Shown here in pieces: positions 8,915 through 62,751 of a stretch of DNA of 64,000 nt. The stretch's first letter is position 1. Each line of letters opens with the position of its first letter. A program made the translations under genes and the position numbers. Source of the stretch: Acidobacteriota bacterium (GTDB lineage: Bacteria; Acidobacteriota; Vicinamibacteria; Marinacidobacterales; Marinacidobacteraceae); assembly GCA_022828085.1 (NCBI GenBank), contig JAJEIY010000001.1, forward strand, positions 35,180-99,179. The letters are read 5' to 3'. The notes beneath the pieces are model-generated. The model ran no database searches. It was not told where the DNA came from and saw nothing but the letters and a program-made list of their open reading frames with translations.

Positions 8915-9015
8915 AAGAGGGCGTTCCAAGCCGGGGGTGCCATCCGGGCAGACAGCCCTACGCGCTTGCGGGCCTGCGGCCCGCGTGCCGGTCGGAGACC
9001 GGCGTTCCAAGCCGT
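8915..9015 (-). repeat. Intergenic repeat element copy C (GGCTTGGAACGCC core plus two hairpins; reverse orientation)
   Basis: The copy contains CGCGTGCCGGTCGGAGACCGGCGTTCCAAGCCG, the reverse complement of the core seen at 28388, 62495 and 15543. Hairpin 2 is GCGGGCC-TGC-GGCCCGC. It is flanked by direct GCGTTCCAAGCC repeats at 8919 and 9001 and lies between convergent genes. Confidence 0.7.
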
Positions 9016-9048: not shown

Positions 9049-10462
9049 ATGGTGCGGCGGGTCGCTCCGCGATGAGGTGTCCGATCGAGTTGGCGTAGTA
9101 GTCGACGAAGTGGCGGCGCGGCTCGAGGATCCGTAGGCGCCCCTTGTCGGCCTTCACCATCTGCCGTTGAATCAGGAGTTGGACTCCGAGTTCTACTGCC
9201 GGCTCCCAGTCTTCCCGGGGGATGTCGGGCTCGCCGAGGCGGGCCGCCAGCGTCTCCAGGATCTCGAAGGCGGCCGCCCGCGCCTCGGTCTTCGTGACGC
9301 CTTGATCGCCCCGGTCCCGAATGACCGTGGCCATCAGCGGTACCGGGAGCACCGGCATGATGTCCGCGATGCGCCGCATGAGGTCGTCGGCCAGCACCCC
9401 CACCTCGGCGAAGCGTTCCTCGCGGTCGACCGCCCGCGGGTCGAAGTCCCGACTCCGTAGCCACTCCCGGAGCGAGACCGGTGCGCCCACGCTGAGGGTC
9501 GCATGACCGAAGGGCTTCCAACGGCGGTTGAGCCGTAGCCAGAACTGGTGGCCCACGAACGCCGCGGTCGCTCGCCAGGACCCGAACCGCGTCGCCCGTT
9601 TGCCGCTGGCCTTCATGATCTGGAGGTTCTTGTCCTCGATGACCCGGTCGTAGTTCACCGCCACGGGCACGAACGCCACGTCGCGGCCCGTTTCGGGGTC
9701 GAAGGACCGCACCGCGTAGTCGAGGAGACCGAGACGCGGCCTCCTGAGCTTCCCGTCTTCCGAGAAGCGTCCCTCGATGAAGAACGCCTGCGGCACGCCG
9801 GCGCCGACGGCGGTCTTCACGTGAGCGGCCAGCACGGCGCGGTAGAGGGGACTCCCGGATCCACGGCGGACGAAGAAGCCGCCGAGGGCGCGGAGGAGGC
9901 CCTCGAGAGGCCAGTAGCGCGCCCATTCGCCCACCGCGAAGGAAAGGATGGCCCGGTCCGCGAGCGAGGTGGCCGCGATCACGTAGTCGAGGTTGCTGCG
10001 GTGGTTGAGGACGAAGACCGGGGTGGAGGTCCGGGCGGCCCGCACGATCGCCCCTTCGTCCACGTAACGGACCCGCACGCGGAAGAGATTCAGCATGATC
10101 CGCTTCACCGGGCCGTGAATGACCCGGAAGTAGAGGCCGGCGCTGAGCGAGGGAACGATCTCCTGGGCGTAACTGCGTGCCTCCGCGAGGGCGTCGCACT
10201 GGTCGGCTTCGCTCCGCTCCGTCTCCTTGAGGATCGCGTCCTGCACGAGCGGGTCCACCATCAGCAGGTCGGCCGTGCTGGTCGGCTTCAGGAGCTGGAA
10301 GGCGGACGGCTGGATCGCGAGCCGGCCCTGCGCCTCGTGGAAGGCGTGCGCGTTGCGCCGCTCCCGGCGCCGGCGCCAGAGCGGCCGGACGACCAGTCCG
10401 TAGAGGCACCCCGCCACCAGCAGCGCGAAGACGGGAAGCGGAACGGAGATGGATTCGAACAC
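9047..10462 (-). CDS. Glycerol-3-phosphate / lysophospholipid acyltransferase (PlsB-like GPAT family)
   Basis: The acyltransferase H(X)4D motif VLNHRSNLDY is present in a PlsB-like domain. The GTG start at 10462 is preferred because the upstream ATG at 10597 would overlap proS by 115 bp. Confidence 0.65.
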   Translation of the reverse strand: MFESISVPLPVFALLVAGCLYGLVVRPLWRRRRERRNAHAFHEAQGRLAIQPSAFQLLKPTSTADLLMVDPLVQDAILKETERSEADQCDALAEARSYAQEIVPSLSAGLYFRVIHGPVKRIMLNLFRVRVRYVDEGAIVRAARTSTPVFVLNHRSNLDYVIAATSLADRAILSFAVGEWARYWPLEGLLRALGGFFVRRGSGSPLYRAVLAAHVKTAVGAGVPQAFFIEGRFSEDGKLRRPRLGLLDYAVRSFDPETGRDVAFVPVAVNYDRVIEDKNLQIMKASGKRATRFGSWRATAAFVGHQFWLRLNRRWKPFGHATLSVGAPVSLREWLRSRDFDPRAVDREERFAEVGVLADDLMRRIADIMPVLPVPLMATVIRDRGDQGVTKTEARAAAFEILETLAARLGEPDIPREDWEPAVELGVQLLIQRQMVKADKGRLRILEPRRHFVDYYANSIGHLIAERPAAP

Positions 10463-14782: not shown

Positions 14783-15382
14783 TCAGTCGATAAAGAGGGG
14801 CACGATGGCGGCGACGAGCAGCAGTCCCGTCGCGACGTTGAAGATCCGGAGCCGGTTGCGGCGCTTCAGGAGCCGCCCGATCCCGACTCCGAAGAGCGTC
14901 CAGACGGAAGCGCAGGCGTAGTTGACCGAGACGAAGCTCAGGGTGATCGCGCCCACTTCGAGGAAGAGGTCTCCCTCGACGGTGGTAAAGGCGCTGACGG
15001 CCCCGACGGCAACCACCCACCCTTTGGGGTTGACCCACTGGAACGCCGCGGCCTGAAGGAAGGTGAACGGGCGGCCGGGGCGTTCCGTCGCCGGTCCGGT
15101 TCCGCTGGCCGTGGCGATCCTCCAGGCCATCCAGAGGATGGCTGCCGAGCCCACGTACTTGAGGACGACGTGCACCGCGGGGGCGGCCTCGAAGACCCCC
15201 CCGAGGCCGAACCCCACCCCGGCCACCATGGCCGGATACCCGAGGCCGATGCCCAGGAGATGCGGGATCGTCCGCCGGTAGCCGAAGTTCGCCCCCGAGG
15301 CGGTGACCATGACGTTGTTGGGCCCGGGCGTGATCGACATGGAGAACGCGAAGAGCGCGACGGGGAGGATCAGGTCGAGCAT
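14783..15382 (-). CDS. LysE/RhtB family amino-acid exporter
   Basis: The 199-aa protein has six TM segments and the LysE-family N-terminus MLDLILPVALFAFSMSITPGPNN. Confidence 0.8.
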   Translation of the reverse strand: MLDLILPVALFAFSMSITPGPNNVMVTASGANFGYRRTIPHLLGIGLGYPAMVAGVGFGLGGVFEAAPAVHVVLKYVGSAAILWMAWRIATASGTGPATERPGRPFTFLQAAAFQWVNPKGWVVAVGAVSAFTTVEGDLFLEVGAITLSFVSVNYACASVWTLFGVGIGRLLKRRNRLRIFNVATGLLLVAAIVPLFID

Positions 15383-15519
15383 GCGAGGGACTGCTTTGGC
15401 GGGGAGGAATCTACTGTTGCCTCGCTGCGCTTCACGAGGGTCGGATTCATGTCCTTCGCGGCGCTACGCGCTGCGGTGCCGGGAGAAACGCCCAGGCGCG
15501 CGTCCTCCTGCGCACCGCG

Positions 15520-15636
15520 CCCGTCATGAGAATGGCGGAAACGGCTTGGAACGCCGGTCTCCGACCGGCACGCGGCCCGAAGGGCCGCAGGCGACGTGTC
15601 GCTGTTTGCCCCGATGGGACGCCGGGACAAACAGGT
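15520..15636 (+). repeat. Intergenic repeat element copy D (core plus hairpin 1, covarying hairpin 2 GCGGCCC-GAA-GGGCCGC, and a long CTGTTTG...CAAACAG hairpin)
   Basis: The core GGCTTGGAACGCCGGTCTCCGACCGGC lies at 15543-15569. It is preceded by GTCATGAGAATGGCG, cf. GCCGTGATGGCG in copy B. It forms an inverted pair with copy E. Confidence 0.7.
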
Positions 15637-15680
15637 GCCCTCGCTTCCGGTCGGCTCCGAAGGAGAGAGCCATGCCGCGG

Positions 15681-15755
15681 GTCGGCGTCACGACGTGCGC
15701 GGGGCGGAGCACCGCGCGTGCCGGTCGGAGACCGGCGTTCCAGGCCGGCGGCGTC
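15681..15755 (-). repeat. Intergenic repeat element copy E (reverse orientation; about 94% identical to copy B over about 90 bp)
   Basis: The reverse complement reads GCGCCGTGATGACGCCGCCGGCCTGGAACGCCGGTCTCCGACCGGCACGCGCGGTGCTCCGCCCCGCGCACGTCGTG. Confidence 0.75.
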
Positions 15756-15854
15756 ATCACGGCGCTTGACCGACCCGCAGGACTGCATTCTCACAGCAAA
15801 CTCGCGACGGCAATCGTCCCCGTCGTCACCACCCAACCAGGGACGGCGCAACGA

Positions 15855-16322
15855 ATGAAGCGCCTCAACCGCGTCCTCGTAGCGGCCGAAACCTGCGCAG
15901 CCGGCGCCCTCGTGGTCGCGGTCTGCGCCGTCGTCCTCCTTCAGGTCCTGATGCGCTACCTCTTCGCCGCCCCGAACCCCTGGAGCGAGGAGCTCTCGCG
16001 CTTCGCCTTCATCTGGGTGTCGCTGCTCGGGGCCTCGCTGGCGGTGGAGCACCGGGCCCACTTCGGGTTCGACCAGGTCACGAAGAAGCTGGCCCCACGG
16101 GTGAGGCGGACGGTGGAGCGGTTTGCCTGGGCGGTCGTGCTGGCGTTCTCCCTCGTCCTCATCACGACCGGAATCGCCTTGATGGACCTCACCCTGGGCG
16201 AGCGCTCCGCGGCGCTGAACCTGCCCGTCGCGCTCGTCTATGCGGCGGCGCCGGTGTCGGGGCTGCTGATGGCGATCCACCTGCTCGCCGGGCGGGCAGG
16301 CCGCGGCGAGGAGAACGGATGA
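15855..16322 (+). CDS. dctQ: TRAP transporter small permease subunit
   Basis: The 155-aa protein has four TM segments. Its start MKRLNRVLVAAE is in frame with the track ORF at its 185th codon. Its stop overlaps the dctM start as ATGA. Confidence 0.8.
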   Translation: MKRLNRVLVAAETCAAGALVVAVCAVVLLQVLMRYLFAAPNPWSEELSRFAFIWVSLLGASLAVEHRAHFGFDQVTKKLAPRVRRTVERFAWAVVLAFSLVLITTGIALMDLTLGERSAALNLPVALVYAAAPVSGLLMAIHLLAGRAGRGEENG

Positions 16323-17596
16323 TGGGCGGCCTGCTCCTCGGCGCCTTCGGCGCGCTGGTGGCGGCGGCGGTACCCATCGGCTTCGCGCTCGCCACCGCCG
16401 CCGTCATCGCCATCGTGGCGGCGGATCTGCCGCTCGTCCTCATCCCGCAGCAGATCGTCGCCGGGATGGACTCCTTCCCGATGCTCGCGGTGCCGCTTTT
16501 CATCCTGGCGGGCTTCCTCATGGACGTCGGGGGCATCAGCCGCCGGCTGGTGGCGCTCGCGCGTTCCCTGGTCGGACACCTCCCCGGGGGTCTCGGACAG
16601 GTGGTGATCATGGCCGAGATGTTCTTCTCGGGCGTCTCGGGCTCCACGTCCGCGGACGCGGCCGCCATCGGGGGCATCATGGTGCCCCAGCTCACCGCGA
16701 ACGGATACAGCCGGGAGCGCTCCACCGCGATCGTCTCGGCGGCGTGCGGGATGGGGATCCTGATTCCGCCGGCCATCGTGATGGTCATCTACGGCGTGAT
16801 CGGGGGCGTCTCCATCGGCGCCCTGTTCGTCGCCTCCATCGCGCCCGCCCTCCTCATCGCCGCGGGCCTGATGGCGCAGATCGGGTGGCAGGCGCGGCGG
16901 CAGGGGTGGCCGGCCGGCGAGCGCGCCTCCTTCGCAGACGTTCGCCGCGCCGGGCTCGACGCCGTGCTTCCGCTCTTCATGATCGTGGTCATCCTGGGCG
17001 GCATCCGCTTCGGCCTCTTCACGCCCACCGAGGCCGCGGCCGTCGCCGTCGCCTACGCGCTGCTGCTGGCCGGGCCGGTCTACCGGTCGCTGACCGCCCG
17101 GGGGCTCTGGGACAAGGTCGTCCAGACCGCTCTGGTGTCCGGGATGGTGCTCTTCGTGGTGGGCGCGGCCCGCCTCCTGGGCTGGGTCCTCGCGGTCGAG
17201 GAGGTGCCCCAGGCGCTCGCCTCCTCGGTGGTGGGAATGGGCGGCGGCGCGGCCGGCTTCCTGATCCTCACCATTCTCGTCTTCCTGCCGCTCGGCGCCA
17301 TCCTCGAGGGCGTGCCGGCGGTCGTCATGCTGACGCCGATCCTGCTGCCGATCGCGCGCCAGCTCGGGATCGACCCCGTGCACTACGGCGCCGTCATCGT
17401 GGCGACCCAGGGGATCTCCGTGTTCCTGCCCCCGGTGGGAGTCAGCCTCCTGGTGGCCTGCTCGGTGGGAGGGGTCGAGCCGGCGAAGGTCGCCCGGCCG
17501 CTCGCGCCCTACCTGGCGCTCATGCTGGCGCTCACCCTCGTCATCGCGTTTATGCCGGGCGTGGTGCTGTTCCTGCCGAACCTGCTCGGCTACTGA
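16319..17596 (+). CDS. dctM: TRAP transporter large permease subunit
   Basis: The 425-aa polytopic protein has DctM-family conserved blocks (FLMDVGGIS, MAEMFFSGVSGS). Confidence 0.9.
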   Translation: MMGGLLLGAFGALVAAAVPIGFALATAAVIAIVAADLPLVLIPQQIVAGMDSFPMLAVPLFILAGFLMDVGGISRRLVALARSLVGHLPGGLGQVVIMAEMFFSGVSGSTSADAAAIGGIMVPQLTANGYSRERSTAIVSAACGMGILIPPAIVMVIYGVIGGVSIGALFVASIAPALLIAAGLMAQIGWQARRQGWPAGERASFADVRRAGLDAVLPLFMIVVILGGIRFGLFTPTEAAAVAVAYALLLAGPVYRSLTARGLWDKVVQTALVSGMVLFVVGAARLLGWVLAVEEVPQALASSVVGMGGGAAGFLILTILVFLPLGAILEGVPAVVMLTPILLPIARQLGIDPVHYGAVIVATQGISVFLPPVGVSLLVACSVGGVEPAKVARPLAPYLALMLALTLVIAFMPGVVLFLPNLLGY

Positions 17597-17609
17597 GGAC
17601 CGCAAGGCG

Positions 17610-28375: not shown

Positions 28376-28444
28376 GACGGCGCCGCCGGCTTGGAACGCC
28401 GGTCTCCGACCGGCACGCGCGGCGCTCCGAGCCGCGCACGTCGC
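28376..28444 (+). repeat. Intergenic repeat element copy A
   Basis: The copy reads GGCGCCGCCGGCTTGGAACGCCGGTCTCCGACCGGCACGCGCGGCGCTCCGAGCCGCGCACGTCG, with hairpin 1 at 28398-28414 and hairpin 2 at 28417-28437 (GCGCGGC...GCCGCGC). It lies between convergent genes. Confidence 0.75.
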
Positions 28445-41480: not shown

Positions 41481-44333
41481 CTAGAAGCGAATCCGGAGCG
41501 CCAGCTCGATCTGCCGGGCCTCGGACACCTGCGTCGACTGTCCGAAGCCTCCGGAACGGAGGTTGCCGTTCGGAGGGAAGTAGTTGGCGCGGTTCAGCAG
41601 GTTGAACACCTGGAAGATGGCCTCGGCGTAGGCGTTGTCGCCGAACCGGAACTCCTTCGCCGCCAGCACGTCCACGGTGGCGTAGGCGGGACACTCGACC
41701 GAGGAAACCGTCGACAGCCCGTTCGCGGTCCGGTAGGCGTTCGCCGCATTCAGATCGAGATCGCGGCAGCCGTCCCGGAGGTTGATCCCCGGTGGCCGGT
41801 CTCCGCCGATGCCGTCCCCGTTCAGGTCGCTGCCCGCCGTGACGTTGAACGGCAGGGCGCTCTGGTAGCGGACGATGCCGCTCAGGTTGACACCCCCCGG
41901 CAGCATCGCGAGGCCGCTGAGGGTGAGGCGGTGCCGCCGGTCCGCGGGCACGTGCCCGTAGTCGGAACCACGGTTGTAGTGGTCGGCGGGGAACGTCTCC
42001 GAGTCGGCCTGCACGTCAGCCAGCGTGTAGGAGCCGAGCATCTGCCAGTTGTCCGCGAGCCGCTTCGTCACTCTCGCCGACAGGGCGCGGTACTTCATCT
42101 CGCCGTCCGTCATGCCGGCCGTGACCCGGCCGATCGGGGCGTAGGGTCGTTCGCCTCCCGCCGTCAACGGGTAGTTGAAGTCGATCTGCGTGTGCTGGTT
42201 GAAACCGTCGGCGGCGATGCCGTCGAGGCTGATGCTCAGATCGTCCCCGAGCTGGATGCTGTAGCCCAGGCTGTACTGGTTGGTGTAAGGCGTCCGGTTC
42301 TCGTTGCCCTGGACGGAGTAGTTCCGCTGGGAACGCGCTACCTCGAAGGGGTCCTGCCCCTGATACGGATCGGGATAGCTGGGATTCTGGATCACCACCA
42401 GCAGGTCCTCGGGATTCCGCTCGGCGCGGGGCGCGCCGTTGGCCCGGTAACGGTTGTAGAAGACCCCCCAGGCGGCCCGCACCGACTGGCGGCCGTCGCC
42501 GGTCGGATCCCACACCAATCCCAGCCGGGGGCCGAAGTTGTCGTTGTCCCCGCGGGTGCTGTTGTCGTAGAACGGGAAGAGGGACGGATCGAGCCGGCCG
42601 GCCGGGCGCACGACCCGGTCCCGGACCAGGATCTCGGGCACCGTTTCCTCGAGCAGGTTCTCGTTCCAGACGCCCTGCTGCAGGTCATACCGCAGACCGA
42701 GGTTCAGCGTGAGCCGGGGGTTCACGATCCAGGTATCGCTGATGTAGATGGAGTGCTCCGTGTTCTCGAAATCGTCGTAGCGGGGCAGAAGCCGCTGCCG
42801 GAACCGGTCGGGGTGGGTGGACGGATCGTTCGGGTCGTACGGCGCGTCGGAGGAGAACCACCACTCTTCGGCGACGCCGACGTTGTCCGGTTCCCAGTCA
42901 ATGAACGTGAGGTCCACGCCGAGCTTCAGCTCGTGGCCCCCAACGTAGTGGGAGATGTCGTTCTTGACCTGGATGTGGAGTTCCGGCCCCAGGAACGCGG
43001 ACTGGCTCCCGGTGCGGAGACTGGGGCGGTTGATGAGGGGCCCGACATCCACGCGCTCGGCCGGGAACTCGCCGGAGGCGCTCCACTTCTGGTGTCCGGG
43101 GGGCCAGCCGATGTAGGTGGCGTGCGCCACCTGGACCCGGAAGTCGTTGAAAGTGTTGGGGCTCAGGAACCAGGTCTCGCCCAGCACCAGTGAGTGCCGT
43201 GGAGCCCCGAAGCTGAAGCCGCTGCTCGCCGCCCGGATGCCGCCGGAGCCGCGGTGAGTCAGTTCGTTGTTGTGGTGCGCGTAGCGGGCGAACAGGCGGT
43301 GATCGTCGTTGATGGCGTAATCGAGGCGCGCGAACCCCATGAAGTTCCAGTCCGGCTTCTCAAAGGTGCCCTCCTCGGAAGGAAACGCGCCTCCGGTGTT
43401 CACCGTGAAGAAGGAGGTCTCGTCGGTGTACTCGGCGGAGAGGTAGAAATGGGCCTTGTCCTCGACGATCGGGCCACCGAGCGATCCGCCGAACTGGTGG
43501 CGGGAGAAATCGGGCTTTTCGTCCTGAAACACCGTCTTCGAGTTCAGCGCCTTGGTGCGGAAGAACTCGAAGACGCTGCCGCTGACCCGGTTCGTGCCAC
43601 TTTTGGTGACCACGTTCAGGTAGCCGCCCTGCGCGAAACCGAAGTCGGCGCTGGCGTTGAACGCCTGGACCTTGAACTCGGCAATGCCTTCCTGCGGAAA
43701 GTCCTGCCGCGGCTCGCCCTGCTGCTGCCAGTTGTTGCTCACCCCGTCCACGTAGAAACCGTTCGAATAGAACGTGACGCCGGCGCCGATGTTGACGTTG
43801 TTGTAGAAAACGCCGCGGATCGCATCCTGACTGGTGGCGGGACTCAGCGTGGCCAGATCGAGCCACTTCCGTCCCTGCATCGGCAGGACCTCCACCTGTT
43901 CCTCGGTGATGATGGTGGAGAAGTCCGCCTGCCGGGACTCGATGAGTGGGGCGGATGCGGTGACGGTGACCGCCTCCTCGACTCCGGCCAGTTCCAGCGA
44001 GATGTTGAGCGTCACCTGCTGCGCCACCTGCAGCCGCAGGCCCTCGTTGGTGACGGTCTGGAACCCATCGAGGCTCGCCATCACCGCGTAGGTGCCGACC
44101 GGAAGCGAGGGCACCTGGTACAGGCCGTCCCCTCCGGAGGTCACCGTCCGCTGCAGCCCGGTTTCGGCGTTCGTGACGGTGACGGTCACTCCGGGCAACG
44201 CGTCCCCGGTGGCGTCGGTTACGCGCCCGTAGACGCCTGCTTCCTGGGCGGCCGCGGTGACGGCCACTCCGACGAGCAGCGCTGCGAACAGCACCGCCAG
44301 GGGCCTCGCCCCGATGCAGTTACCGAAATTCAT
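41481..44333 (-). CDS. TonB-dependent outer-membrane receptor with N-terminal carboxypeptidase-regulatory-like (CarbopepD_reg) domain
   Basis: A signal peptide MNFGNCIGARPLAVLFAALLVGVAVTAAAQ is followed by GRVTDATGDALPGVTVTVTNAETG, a CarbopepD_reg domain. Plug and barrel regions follow, the C-terminus ends in aromatic F, and the protein is about 950 aa. Confidence 0.88.
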   Translation of the reverse strand: MNFGNCIGARPLAVLFAALLVGVAVTAAAQEAGVYGRVTDATGDALPGVTVTVTNAETGLQRTVTSGGDGLYQVPSLPVGTYAVMASLDGFQTVTNEGLRLQVAQQVTLNISLELAGVEEAVTVTASAPLIESRQADFSTIITEEQVEVLPMQGRKWLDLATLSPATSQDAIRGVFYNNVNIGAGVTFYSNGFYVDGVSNNWQQQGEPRQDFPQEGIAEFKVQAFNASADFGFAQGGYLNVVTKSGTNRVSGSVFEFFRTKALNSKTVFQDEKPDFSRHQFGGSLGGPIVEDKAHFYLSAEYTDETSFFTVNTGGAFPSEEGTFEKPDWNFMGFARLDYAINDDHRLFARYAHHNNELTHRGSGGIRAASSGFSFGAPRHSLVLGETWFLSPNTFNDFRVQVAHATYIGWPPGHQKWSASGEFPAERVDVGPLINRPSLRTGSQSAFLGPELHIQVKNDISHYVGGHELKLGVDLTFIDWEPDNVGVAEEWWFSSDAPYDPNDPSTHPDRFRQRLLPRYDDFENTEHSIYISDTWIVNPRLTLNLGLRYDLQQGVWNENLLEETVPEILVRDRVVRPAGRLDPSLFPFYDNSTRGDNDNFGPRLGLVWDPTGDGRQSVRAAWGVFYNRYRANGAPRAERNPEDLLVVIQNPSYPDPYQGQDPFEVARSQRNYSVQGNENRTPYTNQYSLGYSIQLGDDLSISLDGIAADGFNQHTQIDFNYPLTAGGERPYAPIGRVTAGMTDGEMKYRALSARVTKRLADNWQMLGSYTLADVQADSETFPADHYNRGSDYGHVPADRRHRLTLSGLAMLPGGVNLSGIVRYQSALPFNVTAGSDLNGDGIGGDRPPGINLRDGCRDLDLNAANAYRTANGLSTVSSVECPAYATVDVLAAKEFRFGDNAYAEAIFQVFNLLNRANYFPPNGNLRSGGFGQSTQVSEARQIELALRIRF

Positions 44334-47454: not shown

Positions 47455-47508
47455 GCGTTTCGCCTTCCTGCGGTCGGCGATGCCGGCCGGAGGCCGGCGC
47501 TCCAGCGT
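47455..47508 (-). repeat. Diverged member of the repeat family (subfamily GCGTTTCGC...GCCGGCCGGAGGCCGGCGCTCC)
   Basis: Hairpin GCCGGC-CGGAG-GCCGGC lies at 47482-47498 between convergent genes. The copy shares the GCGTTTCGC leader and GCGCTCC tail with the copy at 52779. Confidence 0.55.
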
Positions 47509-48000
47509 TCAGGGCCGGCACTGCCCCGTGACGACCGTGTCGTTGTCCTCCATGTAGTGGACTTCGTACGGGCATTCGATCCCGGTGATTCCGGCGAACT
47601 TCCCGGTGCCGCCGGTGAACACGAAGGCACCCTGGCCGCCGCCCCCGGCCTCGACGTCGCCCGAGTCCCGATGGGCCTCCAGAAACACCTCGTCCTCGTC
47701 GGGATCGTGGAGCGTGCAATGCGAGTCGATGTCGATCGCGGAACCCTCGACCTTGATGGCGGTGGCGCAGGTCCCGTGGAGCCGGGATTCCTCGGTGAAC
47801 GGGCTGTCCGGACCCGCGTAGGGAATGGTCAGCACGCCATGCAGCGAGCCGGCCGTAAGCGAGTGATCCCCGTGCCCGATGGTGGTGTAGTCCCGCTGCC
47901 CGACGAAGACGAAGCGGAAAACGTCGTCGGCCTGCGCGAAGGCGGACGCGGAGGCACCCGCGAGCATGGCGGCGAGCAACGACAGACGCGTCAGGAACAT
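47509..48000 (-). CDS. Secreted hypothetical protein
   Basis: The 163-aa protein has a signal peptide MFLTRLSLLAAMLAGASASAFAQ, 4 Cys and no recognised domain. Confidence 0.5.
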   Translation of the reverse strand: MFLTRLSLLAAMLAGASASAFAQADDVFRFVFVGQRDYTTIGHGDHSLTAGSLHGVLTIPYAGPDSPFTEESRLHGTCATAIKVEGSAIDIDSHCTLHDPDEDEVFLEAHRDSGDVEAGGGGQGAFVFTGGTGKFAGITGIECPYEVHYMEDNDTVVTGQCRP

Positions 48001-52778: not shown

Positions 52779-52825
52779 TGCGTTTCGCGGCCTGCGGCCG
52801 CGATGCCGGCTGGAGGCCGGCGCTC
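52779..52825 (-). repeat. Diverged member of the repeat family between convergent genes
   Basis: Hairpin GCGGCC-TGC-GGCCGC lies at 52787-52801 and hairpin GCCGGC-TGGAG-GCCGGC at 52806-52822, with the shared tail GCGCTCC. Confidence 0.55.
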
Positions 52826-54886
52826 CTAACGATGGACGAAGGTCGCCGGGGTGCGGGGGCCGTTCTCGATGAAGTTCCGGACCCCGATGCGCATGTCCTC
52901 GAGCGCGCAGCCCTCACCGAAGAGCCGTATCTCGTGCTCCAGTCCGGCGGCGAGATCCATCGCGGCGCCCTCGCGGACCGCCCGCTGGATGAACCCGTCC
53001 ACAGCGCGGGAGAGATGGCCGAGGTCCACGTCCGGACACGTCCCCGGGGTGGAGATCGGTCCCGCCGGCATCGCCGGCAGCACGCGTTCACCCCGCGCGG
53101 CTTCGGCGACGACCTGAACCGCCCGCTCCCGGAGCCGCTCGCCGGGGACCAGCTCGCTGACGAGTCCGAGTTCGAGCGCCTCCGCCGCCGAAACCGGCCG
53201 CCCGGTCCGCAGGATTTCCCAGGCGGCCTCCACCCCGATGAGCCGGGGCAGCCGCTGGGTGCCGCCGGCGCCCGGAATGATCCCCAGATTCGGCTCCGGC
53301 TGCATCGCGAGCACCCTGAGCCCCTCGCGGCCGATCCGGGCGTGGCAGGCCATGGCCAGCTCGTTGCCACCGCCGACCGCCATTCCGTTCAGGGCGCAGA
53401 CGACGGGCTTCGGAAGGCCGGCGATGCGGTTCAGCACCTCGTGCGAGGCCCGGGAGAGCCGCTCGCCGTCCTCCGGGCCCCCGATCCGCGCCAGCGTCCG
53501 CACGTCGGCGCCGGAAACGAACGCCTTCACCCCGAAGCCGGTGATCACCATTCCGAGGACGCGGTCGTCCGCCGCCACTTCGGCCAGGTGGGCATCCAGC
53601 TCCCGGAAGACGTCCTCGTCCAGCGCGCCGAGCACCTCCGGCCGCCGGATGGTCAGCACCGCCACCGCGCCCGGCCCCGCCGGAACGTCGCGCCGGCCCA
53701 CCCGGGAGACCGGCCGGGATGTCCACTCGGGCAGGTGTCCGGCGAACCCGGCGGGATCGAAGAAGTCCGGCTCCCGCTCCCGGTAGGAGGCGAGGAGGTC
53801 CGAGACCCGCGCCACCCCCAGTTTCCGCATGAGCCCGAAGGGATGCACCACCGCCAGGGCGAGATGGCAGGACATGTCCAGATCCGGGACGGAGATCGCT
53901 CCGTCCGCGGCGGTCCAGGCGGCAAGTCCCAGATACGCGGCGGTGATCCGTTCCTCGATCCGCGCCCGGCGGTCCTCGGGAACGAACACCTCTTCACCGC
54001 GCGCGGGCACGTCCCACACCCGGCCGGTGGGCCCCTCCTCCGCCACCGCCTCCTCGAGCAGCCGCGGAACCCGGAACCAGGGGTGGAGACGCTCGTGCAT
54101 CTCGGCAAACCCCTCGTAGGTGATCGGGTTGCCGCCGGTCAGGTTCATGGCGGTGAATGGTCCGATCCCGAGCCGGAGCGCCCGGCGGGCGACGTCGTCC
54201 ACCTCCTTCGAGGTCCCGAGCCCCTCCTCGACCGCAAGCGCCGCCGCCAGGAAGAGCCCTTCGAAGATGGGGTTCAGGGCGTGGCCGAACCGGCTCGCGA
54301 CGGCCACCGGCACCTTGCCGATCTCTTCGTAAAAGCCCAGCAACCACGGCACGAGGCCGCGCGCGGGTTCGGCGGCGACGATCTCCACGACCGGGTTGCG
54401 CTCCGCCGGGAAGAAGTAGTGCGCCACCGCCGCGCGGCGCGGTTCGGCCAGCCCGGAGAAGATCCGGGACGGCTCGATGTGGGAGGAGTTCGAGAGCAGC
54501 ACCGCCTCGGGGCCGGCGAGCTCCTCAACCGAGGCGAAGATGCGCCGCTTGATCGCGAGGTCCTCGGATGCCGCCTCGATGACGAGGTCCACCCCGGCGA
54601 GCCGGCTGTAGTCGCTCGTGAACCCGACGGAGCCGCGCATCCGTTCGGCCTGGGAATCCCGAAACGCGCCCGAGCGGACCCCCTTGTCGATCTTGCCGAA
54701 CACCTTCTCGCGGCCGGACGCGAGCGCGGCCTCGGAGATGTCGAGGACGACCGTGCCCACCCCGTGGGGGGAGAGGGTCTTGACCAGATGAAGGGCGATG
54801 TCGGGTCCGATCTGACCCGAGCCGATGACGGCGGCGCGGCGGATCTCCCGGCCGCGCCAGGAAAAGCTCCCTGGCTGACTGTCCAC
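52826..54886 (-). CDS. Fused 3-hydroxyacyl-CoA dehydrogenase (N-terminal) / enoyl-CoA hydratase (C-terminal) fatty-acid oxidation protein
   Basis: The N-terminal Rossmann motif AVIGSGQIGPDIA belongs to an HCDH domain. The C-terminal crotonase fold (VITGFGVKAFVSGADV, NGMAVGGGNELAM) completes a 686-aa protein. Confidence 0.85.
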   Translation of the reverse strand: MDSQPGSFSWRGREIRRAAVIGSGQIGPDIALHLVKTLSPHGVGTVVLDISEAALASGREKVFGKIDKGVRSGAFRDSQAERMRGSVGFTSDYSRLAGVDLVIEAASEDLAIKRRIFASVEELAGPEAVLLSNSSHIEPSRIFSGLAEPRRAAVAHYFFPAERNPVVEIVAAEPARGLVPWLLGFYEEIGKVPVAVASRFGHALNPIFEGLFLAAALAVEEGLGTSKEVDDVARRALRLGIGPFTAMNLTGGNPITYEGFAEMHERLHPWFRVPRLLEEAVAEEGPTGRVWDVPARGEEVFVPEDRRARIEERITAAYLGLAAWTAADGAISVPDLDMSCHLALAVVHPFGLMRKLGVARVSDLLASYREREPDFFDPAGFAGHLPEWTSRPVSRVGRRDVPAGPGAVAVLTIRRPEVLGALDEDVFRELDAHLAEVAADDRVLGMVITGFGVKAFVSGADVRTLARIGGPEDGERLSRASHEVLNRIAGLPKPVVCALNGMAVGGGNELAMACHARIGREGLRVLAMQPEPNLGIIPGAGGTQRLPRLIGVEAAWEILRTGRPVSAAEALELGLVSELVPGERLRERAVQVVAEAARGERVLPAMPAGPISTPGTCPDVDLGHLSRAVDGFIQRAVREGAAMDLAAGLEHEIRLFGEGCALEDMRIGVRNFIENGPRTPATFVHR

Positions 54887-62323: not shown

Positions 62324-62480
62324 CACCGCGCGTCAGTCCCGGGCGGGCTGACCGGCGGGTGCCAAGACCGCGCTTCGCCGGGTCCCGGGACCAAGATGAC
62401 ACGGGAGCGTGACACGCCTGACAACGGCCGGGAACGCCCGCCAGTGGCTGTGAAGATGCCGTCCCGCGGGTCGGCCAAGA

Positions 62481-62563
62481 GCCGTGATGGCGCCGCCGGC
62501 TTGGAACGCCGGTCTCCGACCGGCACGCGCGGTGCTCCGCACCGCGCACGTCGTGGCGTCGAC
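62481..62563 (+). repeat. Intergenic repeat element copy B
   Basis: The copy reads GCCGTGATGGCGCCGCCGGCTTGGAACGCCGGTCTCCGACCGGCACGCGCGGTGCTCCGCACCGCGCACGTCGTGGCGTCGACC. Hairpin 1 lies at 62508-62524 and hairpin 2 at 62527-62547 (GCGCGGTG/CACCGCGC). Confidence 0.75.
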
Positions 62564-62751
62564 CTGCTGGATGGTTGCTCGCTAGTGCCCGCAACTGAGC
62601 AGACCGGAGGTTCCCGGATCTCTGGCGCCCGTGGACTGGCCCACGGCGAAGCGCCGTCGGCGTCCGACGGCCCGGGCGTCCGTCGCCCGGACGCCAGCAC
62701 ACCTATACTCCGGCGGCTGGTCCCACCGCACGCCTCAAGACGTGGATTCCG

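What the first reader, a model, noticed from the sequence alone, without database searches (positions are those of the whole stretch)
15520..15760. Inverted pair of repeat copies (BIME/MITE-like) occupying the divergent promoter region between lysE and dctQM
Copy D (plus orientation, 15543-15636, with an extra long CTGTTTG...CAAACAG hairpin) and copy E (minus orientation, 15681-15755) face each other about 140 bp apart. They lie inside the 470-bp spacer between the LysE exporter start (15382) and dctQ start (15855). This geometry resembles bacterial interspersed mosaic elements or a non-autonomous MITE. Its position could influence transcription of the TRAP permease genes.
Basis: seen in the sequence. 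Interest (0 to 1): 0.5.

Follow-up and report, generated by a model that had tools for sequence, protein, structure and literature searches.

The report
REP/BIME-like repeat pair in Acidobacteria
The inverted pair is real: two copies of an abundant, apparently undescribed double-hairpin repeat family of marine and sponge Acidobacteria, sitting where the transporter operon dctPQM was broken and rearranged; this is a new family of a known kind of element.

Summary
Arms 15542-15574 (+) and 15715-15747 (-) are 32/33 complementary and 140 nt apart. They lie in the 472-nt spacer between lysE and dctQ.

They are two of seven copies in the window of one repeat family. A unit has a 5' foot (GGAAC or GGAGC), an invariant 7-bp hairpin with a TCC loop, one A, and a second hairpin whose sequence varies but stays paired. 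The covariation is strong.

The family is abundant in Vicinamibacteria-class Acidobacteriota genomes assembled from metagenomes. It lies mostly between convergent genes or just after stop codons. It forms tandem arrays, and inverted dimers that always face tail to tail and carry unlike second hairpins. That behaviour matches REP/BIME/REPIN-type elements, not a classical MITE, and no target-site duplication is present.

Nearly the whole lysE-dctQ spacer is a mosaic of family modules, and the same three-unit composite recurs at other loci in other genomes.

Relatives have dctP-dctQ-dctM. The dctP|dctQ junction is empty in one relative. In another it holds one unit read in frame inside dctP. In a third it holds the composite in the opposite orientation. 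The window has no dctP.

No cognate transposase was found. Mobilisation by a single-strand-DNA HUH-Y1 enzyme is inferred only. No public contig confirms the lysE-dctQ adjacency.

The parts
14783..15382 (-). lysE (LysE-type exporter), left flank of the spacer
   Evidence: Pfam PF01810, E 8.5e-15. The identical protein is on contigs L003-L006, all of which end inside the repeats.
15426..15484 (-). Remnant of a third family unit ('T3' type; first hairpin partly deleted, second hairpin GCGGCGC-TAC-GCGCTGC). It includes a 24-nt piece resembling the dctQ 5' end of relative L110.
   Evidence: Aligns to the reverse complement of L110 ~9998-10022: local score 23 against shuffles 9.1+-1.5, 0 of 500 reach it. 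The L110 counterpart scores 24.6 bits with model R1. T3 units are compared.
15485..15541 (+). Leader module of unit D. The reverse complement of 15485-15510 is the conserved CAGGAGGAC-N8-(A/C)TGG.CGTTTC module, which looks like a ribosome-binding site plus ATG (CTG in the window).
   Evidence: Homology with L001 and L027 starts exactly at GAAACGCCC. The module has 12 copies in the fetched loci and is conserved in all six composites of alignment A8.
15542..15593 (+). Unit D (type 2) core: foot GGAAC, hairpin 1 at 15553-15569 (GCCGGTC-TCC-GACCGGC), hairpin 2 at 15572-15588 (GCGGCCC-GAA-GGGCCGC)
   Evidence: Model R1, 41.7 bits, E 4.4e-9. The DNA fold shows two adjacent hairpins.
15602..15634 (+). 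Strain-specific hairpin CTGTTTGCCCCG / CGGGACAAACAG in the tail of D
   Evidence: 12-nt arms, 92% complementary. The right arm is altered in L001, and there is no equivalent in L110, L074 or L027.
15632..15658 (+). 27-nt stretch 26/27 identical to coding DNA of the TonB-dependent receptor gene at 44091-44117 (unexplained)
15694..15747 (-). Unit E (type 2) core: hairpin 1 at 15720-15736, hairpin 2 at 15697-15717, followed on its own strand by ACGTCGT
   Evidence: Model R1, 40.5 bits, E 9.1e-9. The stretch 15670-15797 is 89% identical over 128 nt to copy C at 62447-62574.
15748..15800 (-). Leader module of unit E (GCTGTGAGAATGCAGTCCTGCGGGTCGGTCAAGCGCCGTGATGACGCCGCCGGCC)
   Evidence: The same module precedes copy C and units in L010, L033, L118, L111 and L113.
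15798..15854 (+). Tail of a type-1 unit, as found inside the 3' end of dctP in L112, running up to the dctQ ATG
   Evidence: 78% identity over 51 nt to L112 9956-10006, E 3e-8.
15855..17596 (+). dctQ (15855-16322) and dctM (16319-17596), the TRAP membrane components, with no dctP upstream
   Evidence: Pfam. tblastn with the DctP of L111 finds no DctP in the window or in L001. Relatives have dctP-dctQ-dctM.
8964..9014 (-). Family unit A (type 2), between convergent genes
   Evidence: Model R1, 46.2 bits. Sequence.
28387..28440 (+). Family unit B (type 2), between convergent genes
   Evidence: Model R1, 42.6 bits. Sequence.
47456..47509 (-). Family unit (type 1), 5 nt after the stop codon of the gene at 47509-48000 (-)
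   Evidence: Model R1, 68.6 bits.
52781..52832 (-). Family unit F (type 1), overlapping the stop codon of the gene at 52826-54886 (-)
   Evidence: Model R1, 61.2 bits. Sequence.
62447..62574 (+). Family unit C (type 2 with long leader), downstream of the STAS gene at a synteny breakpoint
   Evidence: Model R1, 47.1 bits at 62497-62550.

Best explanation
D and E are two members of a high-copy family of interspersed palindromic DNA repeats of the REP/BIME/REPIN kind, found in Vicinamibacteria-class Acidobacteriota.

A core unit has five parts:
- a 5' foot, GGAAC (type 2, as in D and E) or GGAGC (type 1);
- an invariant 7-bp hairpin with a TCC loop;
- a single A;
- a second hairpin whose sequence differs between subfamilies but stays paired;
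- a 30-60-nt tail.

Units occur singly, in head-to-tail arrays and as tail-to-tail inverted heterodimers. D-E is such a heterodimer. Together with a third, degraded unit and a shared leader it forms a roughly 375-nt composite that recurs at unrelated loci in other genomes.

Shown: the family, its structure and covariation, its gene-end location, its dimer geometry, its presence/absence polymorphism between relatives, and its coincidence with synteny breaks. At this locus those breaks include loss of dctP from dctPQM and opposite orientation of the composite in a 96%-related genome.

Inferred: the units spread and recombine at the DNA level, most likely as single-stranded hairpins recognised by a sequence- and structure-specific HUH-Y1 enzyme (RAYT or class-3 TnpA-like) encoded once elsewhere in the genome. 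Here they act as a rearrangement hot spot, not as a dedicated regulator of dctQM.
For: Family and chance:
- The 28-nt core occurs 5 times exactly in the window against 0 expected.
- Model R1 finds 7 units in the window and 245 in 745 kb of fetched loci.

Structure:
- In 41 distinct type-1 units 96.4% of cells pair.
- 7 pairs change on both sides.
- The covariation score is 0.276 against 0.074 in shuffles, reached by 0 of 500.
- Hairpin 1 covaries: GGTC/GACC, GGCC/GGCC, GACC/GGTC.

DNA-level signs:
- G.T (5) is no commoner than A.C (8) in 56 distinct second hairpins.
- Loop, foot and linker are invariant.
- Tandem arrays reach 7.2 copies of a 118-nt unit.
- All 11 inverted dimers are '> <', none '< >'.
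- The dimer arms carry different second hairpins.

Location:
- Units occupy 36 of 86 convergent, 44 of 376 co-directional and 14 of 95 divergent intergenic regions; 3 units are intragenic.
- Many type-1 units start 0-13 nt after a stop codon.

Polymorphism between relatives:
- dctP|dctQ is empty in L111, holds one unit read in frame in L112-114, and holds the 3-unit composite in L110.
- dctM|glt is empty in the window and L112, and holds 1 unit in L110 and 3 units in L111.
- Downstream of the STAS gene, units occur only where the next gene differs.

Composite:
- The same architecture is seen in six loci from five assemblies.
- Window 15426-15778 aligns to the minus strand of L110 at 69%, E 2e-47.

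Resemblance to known HUH substrates (a lead from the supplementary table of PMC6006769):
- Hairpin 1 looks like subclass 2.7 REPs, such as GTAG-GACCGACC-TCCA-GGTCGGTCC.
- One second-hairpin subfamily (CGCC-GA-CC-loop-GG-GA-GGCG) has the architecture of hairpins beside class-3 TnpA-Y1 genes of Solibacter and Legionella.
Against: - No Y1/RAYT or class-3 transposase motif was found in the window or in about 0.9 Mb of repeat-bearing loci. No protein family recurs next to the units.
- The canonical GTAG foot of REPs is absent. The CnGA foot described for class-3 hairpins is also absent.
- D and E themselves carry plain second hairpins, not the G.A-mismatch type.
- In co-directional intergenic regions units favour the sense orientation (29 against 12), and they sit right after stop codons. 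This would also fit a role in RNA.
- Exact insertion boundaries could not be defined at nucleotide resolution, because the filled and empty alleles are only about 90% identical.
Confidence: 0.7

Rival explanations
1. The units are functional RNA elements. In this reading they are 3'-UTR stem-loops that end or stabilise transcripts, or modulate translation termination, and they are conserved by selection on the RNA. D and E would then shape the lysE and dctQ leaders.
For: Both hairpins covary strongly. Type-1 units often start 0-13 nt after a stop codon in the sense orientation. Sense exceeds antisense 29 to 12 in co-directional regions. The D-E region folds far better than shuffles, z = -5.7.
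Against: No Rfam family matches at the gathering score, and only chance-level hits appear at E<=10. There is no excess of G.U over A.C pairs. No U-tract follows the hairpins, and the terminator scan found none. Units occur in both orientations, as tandem arrays, as inverted dimers and inside ORFs. They are present or absent at orthologous sites in close relatives. In D and E neither unit follows a gene end.
Confidence: 0.15
2. D plus E is a classical MITE. This would be a deletion derivative of an insertion sequence with 33-nt terminal inverted repeats, moved by a DDE transposase and flanked by a target-site duplication.
For: The terminal inverted arms are 32/33 identical. The same composite recurs at different loci. 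An empty orthologous site exists.
Against: No direct repeat bounds the pair or the wider composite (sequence). Each arm is a complete unit that also occurs alone or in head-to-tail arrays. The two arms carry different second hairpins. No transposase gene with these ends was found in 0.9 Mb.
Confidence: 0.05
3. The lysE|D-E|dctQ adjacency is an assembly join across a repeat. In the real genome lysE-D... and ...E-dctQ would lie at two different loci. This concerns the context of the pair, not the pair itself.
For: Every public contig of this population stops in the repeats. L003 (100% identical) ends at 15689, L002 starts at 15693, and L004-L006 end in or before D. In the same sample as L003, contig L001 links D'-E'-dctQ to a glyoxalase gene instead of lysE. 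No gene product spanning the junction is on record.
Against: L003 carries lysE, all of D and the whole D-E spacer, and ends about 5 nt short of unit E as model R1 defines it. L001 shows the same spacer running on into E and dctQ. The D allele of the window matches L003 and differs from L001 at 11 positions, which fits two strains better than two loci in one genome.
Confidence: 0.15
4. The pair is an operator-like array of protein-binding sites that evolved in place to control the divergent lysE and dctQ promoters.
For: The pair lies between divergent gene starts. The invariant 23-nt core implies sequence-specific recognition by some protein.
Against: The same core occurs hundreds of times, mostly at gene 3' ends. 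The spacer is not ancestral: relatives have dctP overlapping dctQ. No sigma-70-like promoter was detected.
Confidence: 0.03

Closest known systems
REP sequences, BIMEs and REPINs (E. coli, Pseudomonas, Stenotrophomonas), mobilised by RAYT (TnpA-REP) HUH-Y1 proteins; GTAG/CGTC-tagged repeats of Di Nocera et al. 2013 (PMC3733652)
   Same: Short GC-rich hairpins with a conserved unpaired foot. Hundreds of copies. Extragenic, enriched downstream of genes and between convergent genes. Inverted dimers of fixed geometry, often heterodimers as in the Y/Z REPs of BIMEs. Clusters and mosaics with other motifs. Occasional intragenic copies. Variable between strains.
   Different: The foot is GGAGC or GGAAC, not GTAG. 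The core has two adjacent hairpins, the first invariant and the second varying by subfamily. The 23-nt core is identical across different orders of Vicinamibacteria. No RAYT was found near any unit. Dimer arms are 150-210 nt apart, further than in typical REPINs.
Hairpins flanking class 3 TnpA-Y1 genes (Quentin et al. 2018, PMC6006769), about 600 copies in the acidobacterium Solibacter usitatus
   Same: Same phylum. High copy number. One second-hairpin subfamily of this family (CGCC-GA-CC-loop-GG-GA-GGCG) shares the architecture of a 4-bp stem, a tandem G.A mismatch, a 2-bp stem and a small loop with CCGC-GA-CC-GTAA-GG-GA-GCGG.
   Different: The 5' foot CnGA is absent. The hairpin is always preceded by the invariant first hairpin. 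D and E do not carry this hairpin type. No class 3 gene was found.
Mosaic intergenic repeats such as RIMEs of rhizobia and Correia/NEMIS elements of Neisseria (own knowledge)
   Same: Composite intergenic elements with inverted ends that sit next to genes, can be co-transcribed, and mark rearrangement points.
   Different: Correia elements are true MITEs with a TA target duplication and IS-like ends. Here there is no duplication, and the ends are self-contained hairpin units.

Membership tests
REP / BIME / REPIN (RAYT-associated) | Short palindromic unit, high copy number, mainly extragenic | tested here: met
   7 units in 64 kb and 245 in 745 kb of loci. Only 3 of 178 core hits are intragenic.
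REP / BIME / REPIN (RAYT-associated) | Conserved unpaired GTAG (GT[AG]G) or CGTC tetranucleotide at the foot of the hairpin | tested here: not met
   The foot is GGAGC or GGAAC. CGTC follows the second hairpin in units B, C and E, and GCGTAG follows it in unit A, but not at the canonical position.
REP / BIME / REPIN (RAYT-associated) | Inverted doublets of fixed geometry, able to fold into one long hairpin | tested here: met
   All 11 inverted dimers are '> <'. They are heterodimers. D pairs with E in the minimum-free-energy fold.
REP / BIME / REPIN (RAYT-associated) | A cognate single-copy Y1 transposase gene flanked by the repeats | tested here: inconclusive
   None was found in the window or in about 0.9 Mb around the units. 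Whole genomes could not be scanned.
REP / BIME / REPIN (RAYT-associated) | Gain or loss at orthologous sites in related genomes | tested here: met
   The dctP|dctQ, dctM|glt and STAS-downstream sites all vary.
MITE | Terminal inverted repeats | tested here: met
   33-nt arms, 32/33 identical. Each arm is, however, an independent unit.
MITE | Target-site duplication flanking the element | tested here: not met
   No direct repeat lies at 15541|15748 or at the composite edges 15484|15801. A GGAACG motif 80-89 nt downstream in about 10% of single units marks the head of a neighbouring unit, not a duplication.
MITE | Parent IS with the same ends | tested here: inconclusive
   No transposase lies between or beside the units in the fetched loci.
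Class 3 TnpA-Y1-associated hairpins | Hairpin with tandem G.A internal mismatch and a CnGA 5' foot, flanking a class 3 gene | tested here: inconclusive
   The hairpin architecture is present in about 20 type-1 units, but not in D or E. The CnGA foot is absent. No gene with NHVH...Y----Q was found.
Any Rfam RNA family | Score at or above the family's gathering threshold | tested here: not met
   0 matches in the whole window. Only chance-level hits (E 0.6-2.5) appear in 15380-15860.
CRISPR array | Regularly spaced identical repeats separated by unique spacers | tested here: not met
   In the tandem arrays the whole 84-118-nt unit is repeated, 'spacer' included. The window copies are kilobases apart.

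The most novel reading that the evidence does not exclude
The family would be the substrate of a still unidentified HUH-Y1 system (class 3 or RAYT subclass 2.7-like) that has persisted across orders of Vicinamibacteria. Its bipartite recognition signal would be an invariant GGAR-C hairpin with a TCC loop plus an exchangeable second hairpin that sets the subfamily and the pairing partner. The system would actively remodel gene ends: it supplies stop codons, becomes translated C-terminal extensions as in DctP, and breaks or inverts operons such as dctPQM.
Probability: 0.25. Interest if true: 0.55.

Novelty: new member of a known kind. Interest (0 to 1): 0.4.

Why it matters
- The work gives a first description of a REP/BIME-type repeat family in Vicinamibacteria, including marine and sponge-associated lineages known only from MAGs.
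- These repeats break short-read assemblies, because contigs end inside them. They can also create chimeric joins, which matters for binning and for reading synteny.
- They mark sites of operon disruption, inversion and in-frame gene extension, so they shape genome evolution in these uncultured bacteria.
- The two-hairpin core, with one constant and one exchangeable hairpin, offers a defined substrate for finding the cognate enzyme.
- For annotation of this window, dctQM should be read as an orphaned remnant of dctPQM, not as a unit with its own ancestral divergent promoter.

Tried and rejected
- Rfam at gathering and at permissive thresholds: nothing meaningful.
- Search for a RAYT: tblastn with an E. 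coli YafM sequence recalled from memory, and HUH...Y motif regexes for classes 1-3, on the window and all loci. All were negative. This is a weak negative, because such genes are single-copy.
- Search for any protein family recurrently adjacent to units: only ordinary housekeeping families.
- ORFs between inverted pairs about 500 nt apart (L025, L069): only spurious high-GC ORFs.
- ECF-sigma promoter reading of GGAAC-N16-17-CGT: the spacing and the -10 element do not fit (by eye).
- CsrA-sponge reading (GGA loops on the reverse strand): rejected, because units are mostly sense to genes and so present UCC loops.
- 'Portable ribosome-binding site' reading of the CAGGAGGAC-N8-ATG module: 6 of 12 copies face a gene, so there is no preference.
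- A simple inversion model for the window against L110: the right-hand junction looks like the native L112 junction, so more than one event is needed. The history was left unresolved.
- Literature search for the core sequence: no paper holds it.
- JGI metagenome scans: 0 hits for the dimer pattern and 1 uninformative hit for the D leader.
- Viral contigs: 0 hits.
- Look-ups of exact flanking proteins for strain-level empty sites at copy B and at the unit at 47456-47509, and of a junction-spanning product: not on record.

Full report
**Observation**

The spacer between lysE (14783-15382, minus strand) and dctQ (15855-16322, plus strand) is 472 nt.
- It holds a 33-nt inverted repeat. The arms are 15542-15574 and 15715-15747, 32/33 complementary, with 140 nt between them.
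- The 28-nt core TGGAACGCCGGTCTCCGACCGGCACGCG occurs five times exactly in the window, against none in 100 shuffles.
- A covariance model built later finds seven units in the window at E<=1e-8: 8964-9014 (-), 15542-15593 (+, 'D'), 15694-15747 (-, 'E'), 28387-28440 (+), 47456-47509 (-), 52781-52832 (-) and 62497-62550 (+).
- The extra CTGTTTG...CAAACAG hairpin (15602-15634) is real. It is degraded in a 97%-identical allele and absent from homologous composites, so I regard it as incidental.

**Anatomy of a unit**

I compared the window copies with about 180 copies fetched from other genomes. A core unit has these parts, in order:
- a 5' foot, GGAGC in 'type 1' or (CTT)GGAAC in 'type 2', which includes D and E;
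- hairpin 1, a 7-bp stem with an invariant TCC loop. Its stem covaries: GCCGGTC/GACCGGC, GCCGGCC/GGCCGGC, GCCGACC/GGTCGGC;
- a single A;
- hairpin 2. In type 1 it opens with TCG and closes with CGA followed by AAC, and its inner stem differs completely between subfamilies while staying paired;
- a tail of 30-60 nt.

On 41 distinct type-1 units the structure is well supported:
- 96.4% of cells pair;
- seven pairs show changes on both sides;
- the covariation score is 0.276 against 0.074+-0.010 in shuffles, reached by 0 of 500;
- slid controls give at most 0.056.

G.T pairs (5) are not commoner than A.C pairs (8) in 56 distinct second hairpins. This fits a palindrome constrained as DNA, or on both strands, better than a one-strand RNA. 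Single units fold as two adjacent hairpins. The D-E region folds with D paired to E, z = -5.7.

**Distribution**

Nearly all come from Acidobacteriota MAGs: Vicinamibacteria, Ca. Marinacidobacterium (class Vicinamibacteria) and several sponge-associated bins. A few are in Opitutaceae and one is in a deltaproteobacterial bin.
- The model finds 245 units in 745 kb of these loci.
- Viral contigs hold none. JGI metagenomes hold almost none.
- Rfam has no match, and no paper in the searchable library holds the core sequence.

**Context**

I wrote a codon-usage gene caller that reproduces the gene tables returned for the same DNA. With it:
- units lie in 36 of 86 convergent, 44 of 376 co-directional and 14 of 95 divergent intergenic regions of the loci, and 3 units are intragenic;
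- many type-1 units begin 0-13 nt after a stop codon, and some overlap it;
- in co-directional regions sense orientation is favoured about 2:1, 29 against 12;
- all eleven inverted dimers are '> <' (tails facing), never '< >', and their two arms carry different second hairpins;
- head-to-tail arrays of 84-118-nt units reach at least 7 copies.

D-E is therefore a typical dimer in a minority location, a divergent region.

**The locus in relatives**

DctQ homologues at 90-96% identity lie on long contigs. Their downstream synteny matches the window: dctM, Glt_symporter, flavin reductase, beta-lactamase and so on. Upstream they have adh_short-dctP. The dctP|dctQ junction exists in four states:
- Empty. 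In L111 the dctP stop overlaps the dctQ start as ATGA.
- One type-1 unit inside the 3' end of dctP, read in frame. In L112-L114 DctP is 394 aa instead of 349 aa.
- A 375-nt insert holding an inverted type-2 pair plus a third unit, in L110, the closest relative at 96%.
- The window and L001. Here dctP is absent and the composite lies in the opposite orientation: window 15426-15778 aligns to the minus strand of L110 at 69%, E 2e-47.

The alignment extends past the repeat into a 24-nt piece that matches the dctQ 5' end of L110 (score 23 against 9.1+-1.5 in shuffles). The 57 nt just upstream of the window's dctQ ATG match the tail of the L112 unit. Apart from 43 nt next to lysE, the whole spacer is repeat-family mosaic. 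A single inversion does not explain all the junctions, so I leave the history unresolved.

Two further sites show the same behaviour:
- The dctM|glt spacer is 13 nt in the window and L112, but holds one unit in L110 and three in L111.
- Downstream of a highly conserved STAS gene, units are present only in the genomes where the next gene differs.

**The composite**

The arrangement is a T3 unit (-), a shared leader, a core (+), a spacer of 90-110 nt, a core (-) and a leader. It recurs in six loci from five assemblies at unrelated positions. D-E is thus one copy of a repeated doublet, comparable to a REPIN or a specific BIME type. I found no target-site duplication around it. A GGAACG motif 80-89 nt downstream of about 10% of single units is the head of a neighbouring or truncated unit.

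**Assembly caveat**

All public contigs of this population stop in the repeats:
- L003 (100% identical) ends at 15689.
- L002 starts at 15693.
- L004-L006 end in or before D.

In the same sample as L003, contig L001 joins D'-E'-dctQ (99.7% identical over 3.6 kb) to a glyoxalase gene plus a type-1 unit instead of lysE. Homology with the window starts exactly at the left edge of the D module, GAAACGCCC. This is either a strain-level rearrangement at the repeat or a sign that the window's lysE-dctQ join is chimeric. D-E contiguity itself is independently supported by L001.

**Mechanism**

Shown:
- a sequence- and structure-conserved palindromic family;
- gain and loss between relatives;
- fixed dimer geometry;
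- coincidence with synteny breaks.

Inferred:
- propagation at the DNA level through single-stranded hairpins recognised by an HUH-Y1 enzyme.

The inference rests on analogy with REP/RAYT systems (PMC3733652, PMC3116915) and on two resemblances in the supplementary table of PMC6006769:
- Hairpin 1 (a GGAGC foot, then a 7-bp stem with a TCC loop) looks like subclass 2.7 REPs, such as GTAG-GACCGACC-TCCA-GGTCGGTCC.
- One second-hairpin subfamily (CGCC-GA-CC-loop-GG-GA-GGCG, with covarying stems and a conserved tandem G.A mismatch) has the architecture of hairpins beside class 3 TnpA-Y1 genes. That paper reports about 600 such hairpins in the acidobacterium Solibacter usitatus.

These resemblances are leads, not tests. 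The canonical GTAG and CnGA feet are absent. No Y1 gene was found in the window or in about 0.9 Mb around units, and no other protein family recurs beside them.

**Rival readings**

The rivals considered are an RNA element, a classical MITE, a local operator and an assembly artefact. They are weighed in the Rival explanations section.

**Verdict**

- The BIME-like reading is supported, and the MITE/TSD reading is not.
- The 'divergent promoter' framing is replaced by 'rearrangement scar in a broken dctPQM operon'.
- This is a new family of a known kind of element, of moderate interest.

Noticed in passing
window 15632-15658 and 44091-44117; L087 4882-4902: A 27-nt stretch in the D-E spacer is 26/27 identical to coding DNA of the TonB-dependent receptor gene (motif YQVPSLPVGTY). 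The same 21-mer is in the TonB receptor gene of another genome. Its origin is unexplained; capture or gene conversion are possibilities.
   Followed up: partly
window 15485-15510 (reverse strand); L110 9930-9998: A conserved module CAGGAGGAC-N8-ATGG.CGTTTC looks like a ribosome-binding site plus start codon. In L110 its 19-codon ORF ends on the dctQ start. In the window it has CTG and faces lysE. Of 12 copies, half face a gene.
   Followed up: partly
L112 9894-10004 (also L113, L114): A type-1 unit is read in frame as a 45-residue C-terminal extension of the periplasmic binding protein DctP.
   Followed up: partly
window 15855-17596: dctQ-dctM has no dctP in the 64-kb window or in contig L001, whereas all close relatives have dctP-dctQ-dctM. 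The membrane components appear orphaned.
   Followed up: yes
window 62324-62415; L115-L124 ~1840-1930: About 90 nt after the STAS (anti-sigma antagonist) gene stop are conserved in at least six aligned loci (window, L117, L118, L119, L123, L124) even though the next gene differs. The stretch includes the hairpin GTCAGTCCCGGGCGGGCTGAC. It may be a conserved 3' element or small RNA.
   Followed up: no
L029 1-853; L083 212-766; L036 1400-1871; L048; L064: Head-to-tail arrays of whole 84-118-nt units, up to 7.2 copies at 93% identity, occur in Ca. Marinacidobacterium genomes.
   Followed up: partly
L065, L067, L092, L108 (second hairpin of type-1 units): An extra stretch of about 20 nt (CCCAGTTCTCCCGGTGGGGGT) lies nested inside the second hairpin of the CGCC-GA-CC subfamily, suggesting insertion into the hairpin itself.
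   Followed up: no
L039 1748-1846; L081 4853-4884: The same 23-nt first-hairpin core occurs in two Opitutaceae (Verrucomicrobiota) genomes, once as an inverted pair around another hairpin between convergent genes. The module is not confined to Acidobacteriota.
   Followed up: partly
ends of L002-L006 and L125: Public short-read contigs repeatedly end inside family units. The repeats fragment assemblies of these organisms.
   Followed up: yes
window 17597-17609 against L110 11755-11946 and L111 11752-12104: The dctM-glt spacer is 13 nt here but holds 1 or 3 units in relatives. In the filled alleles the dctM stop codon changes from TGA to TAG.
   Followed up: yes
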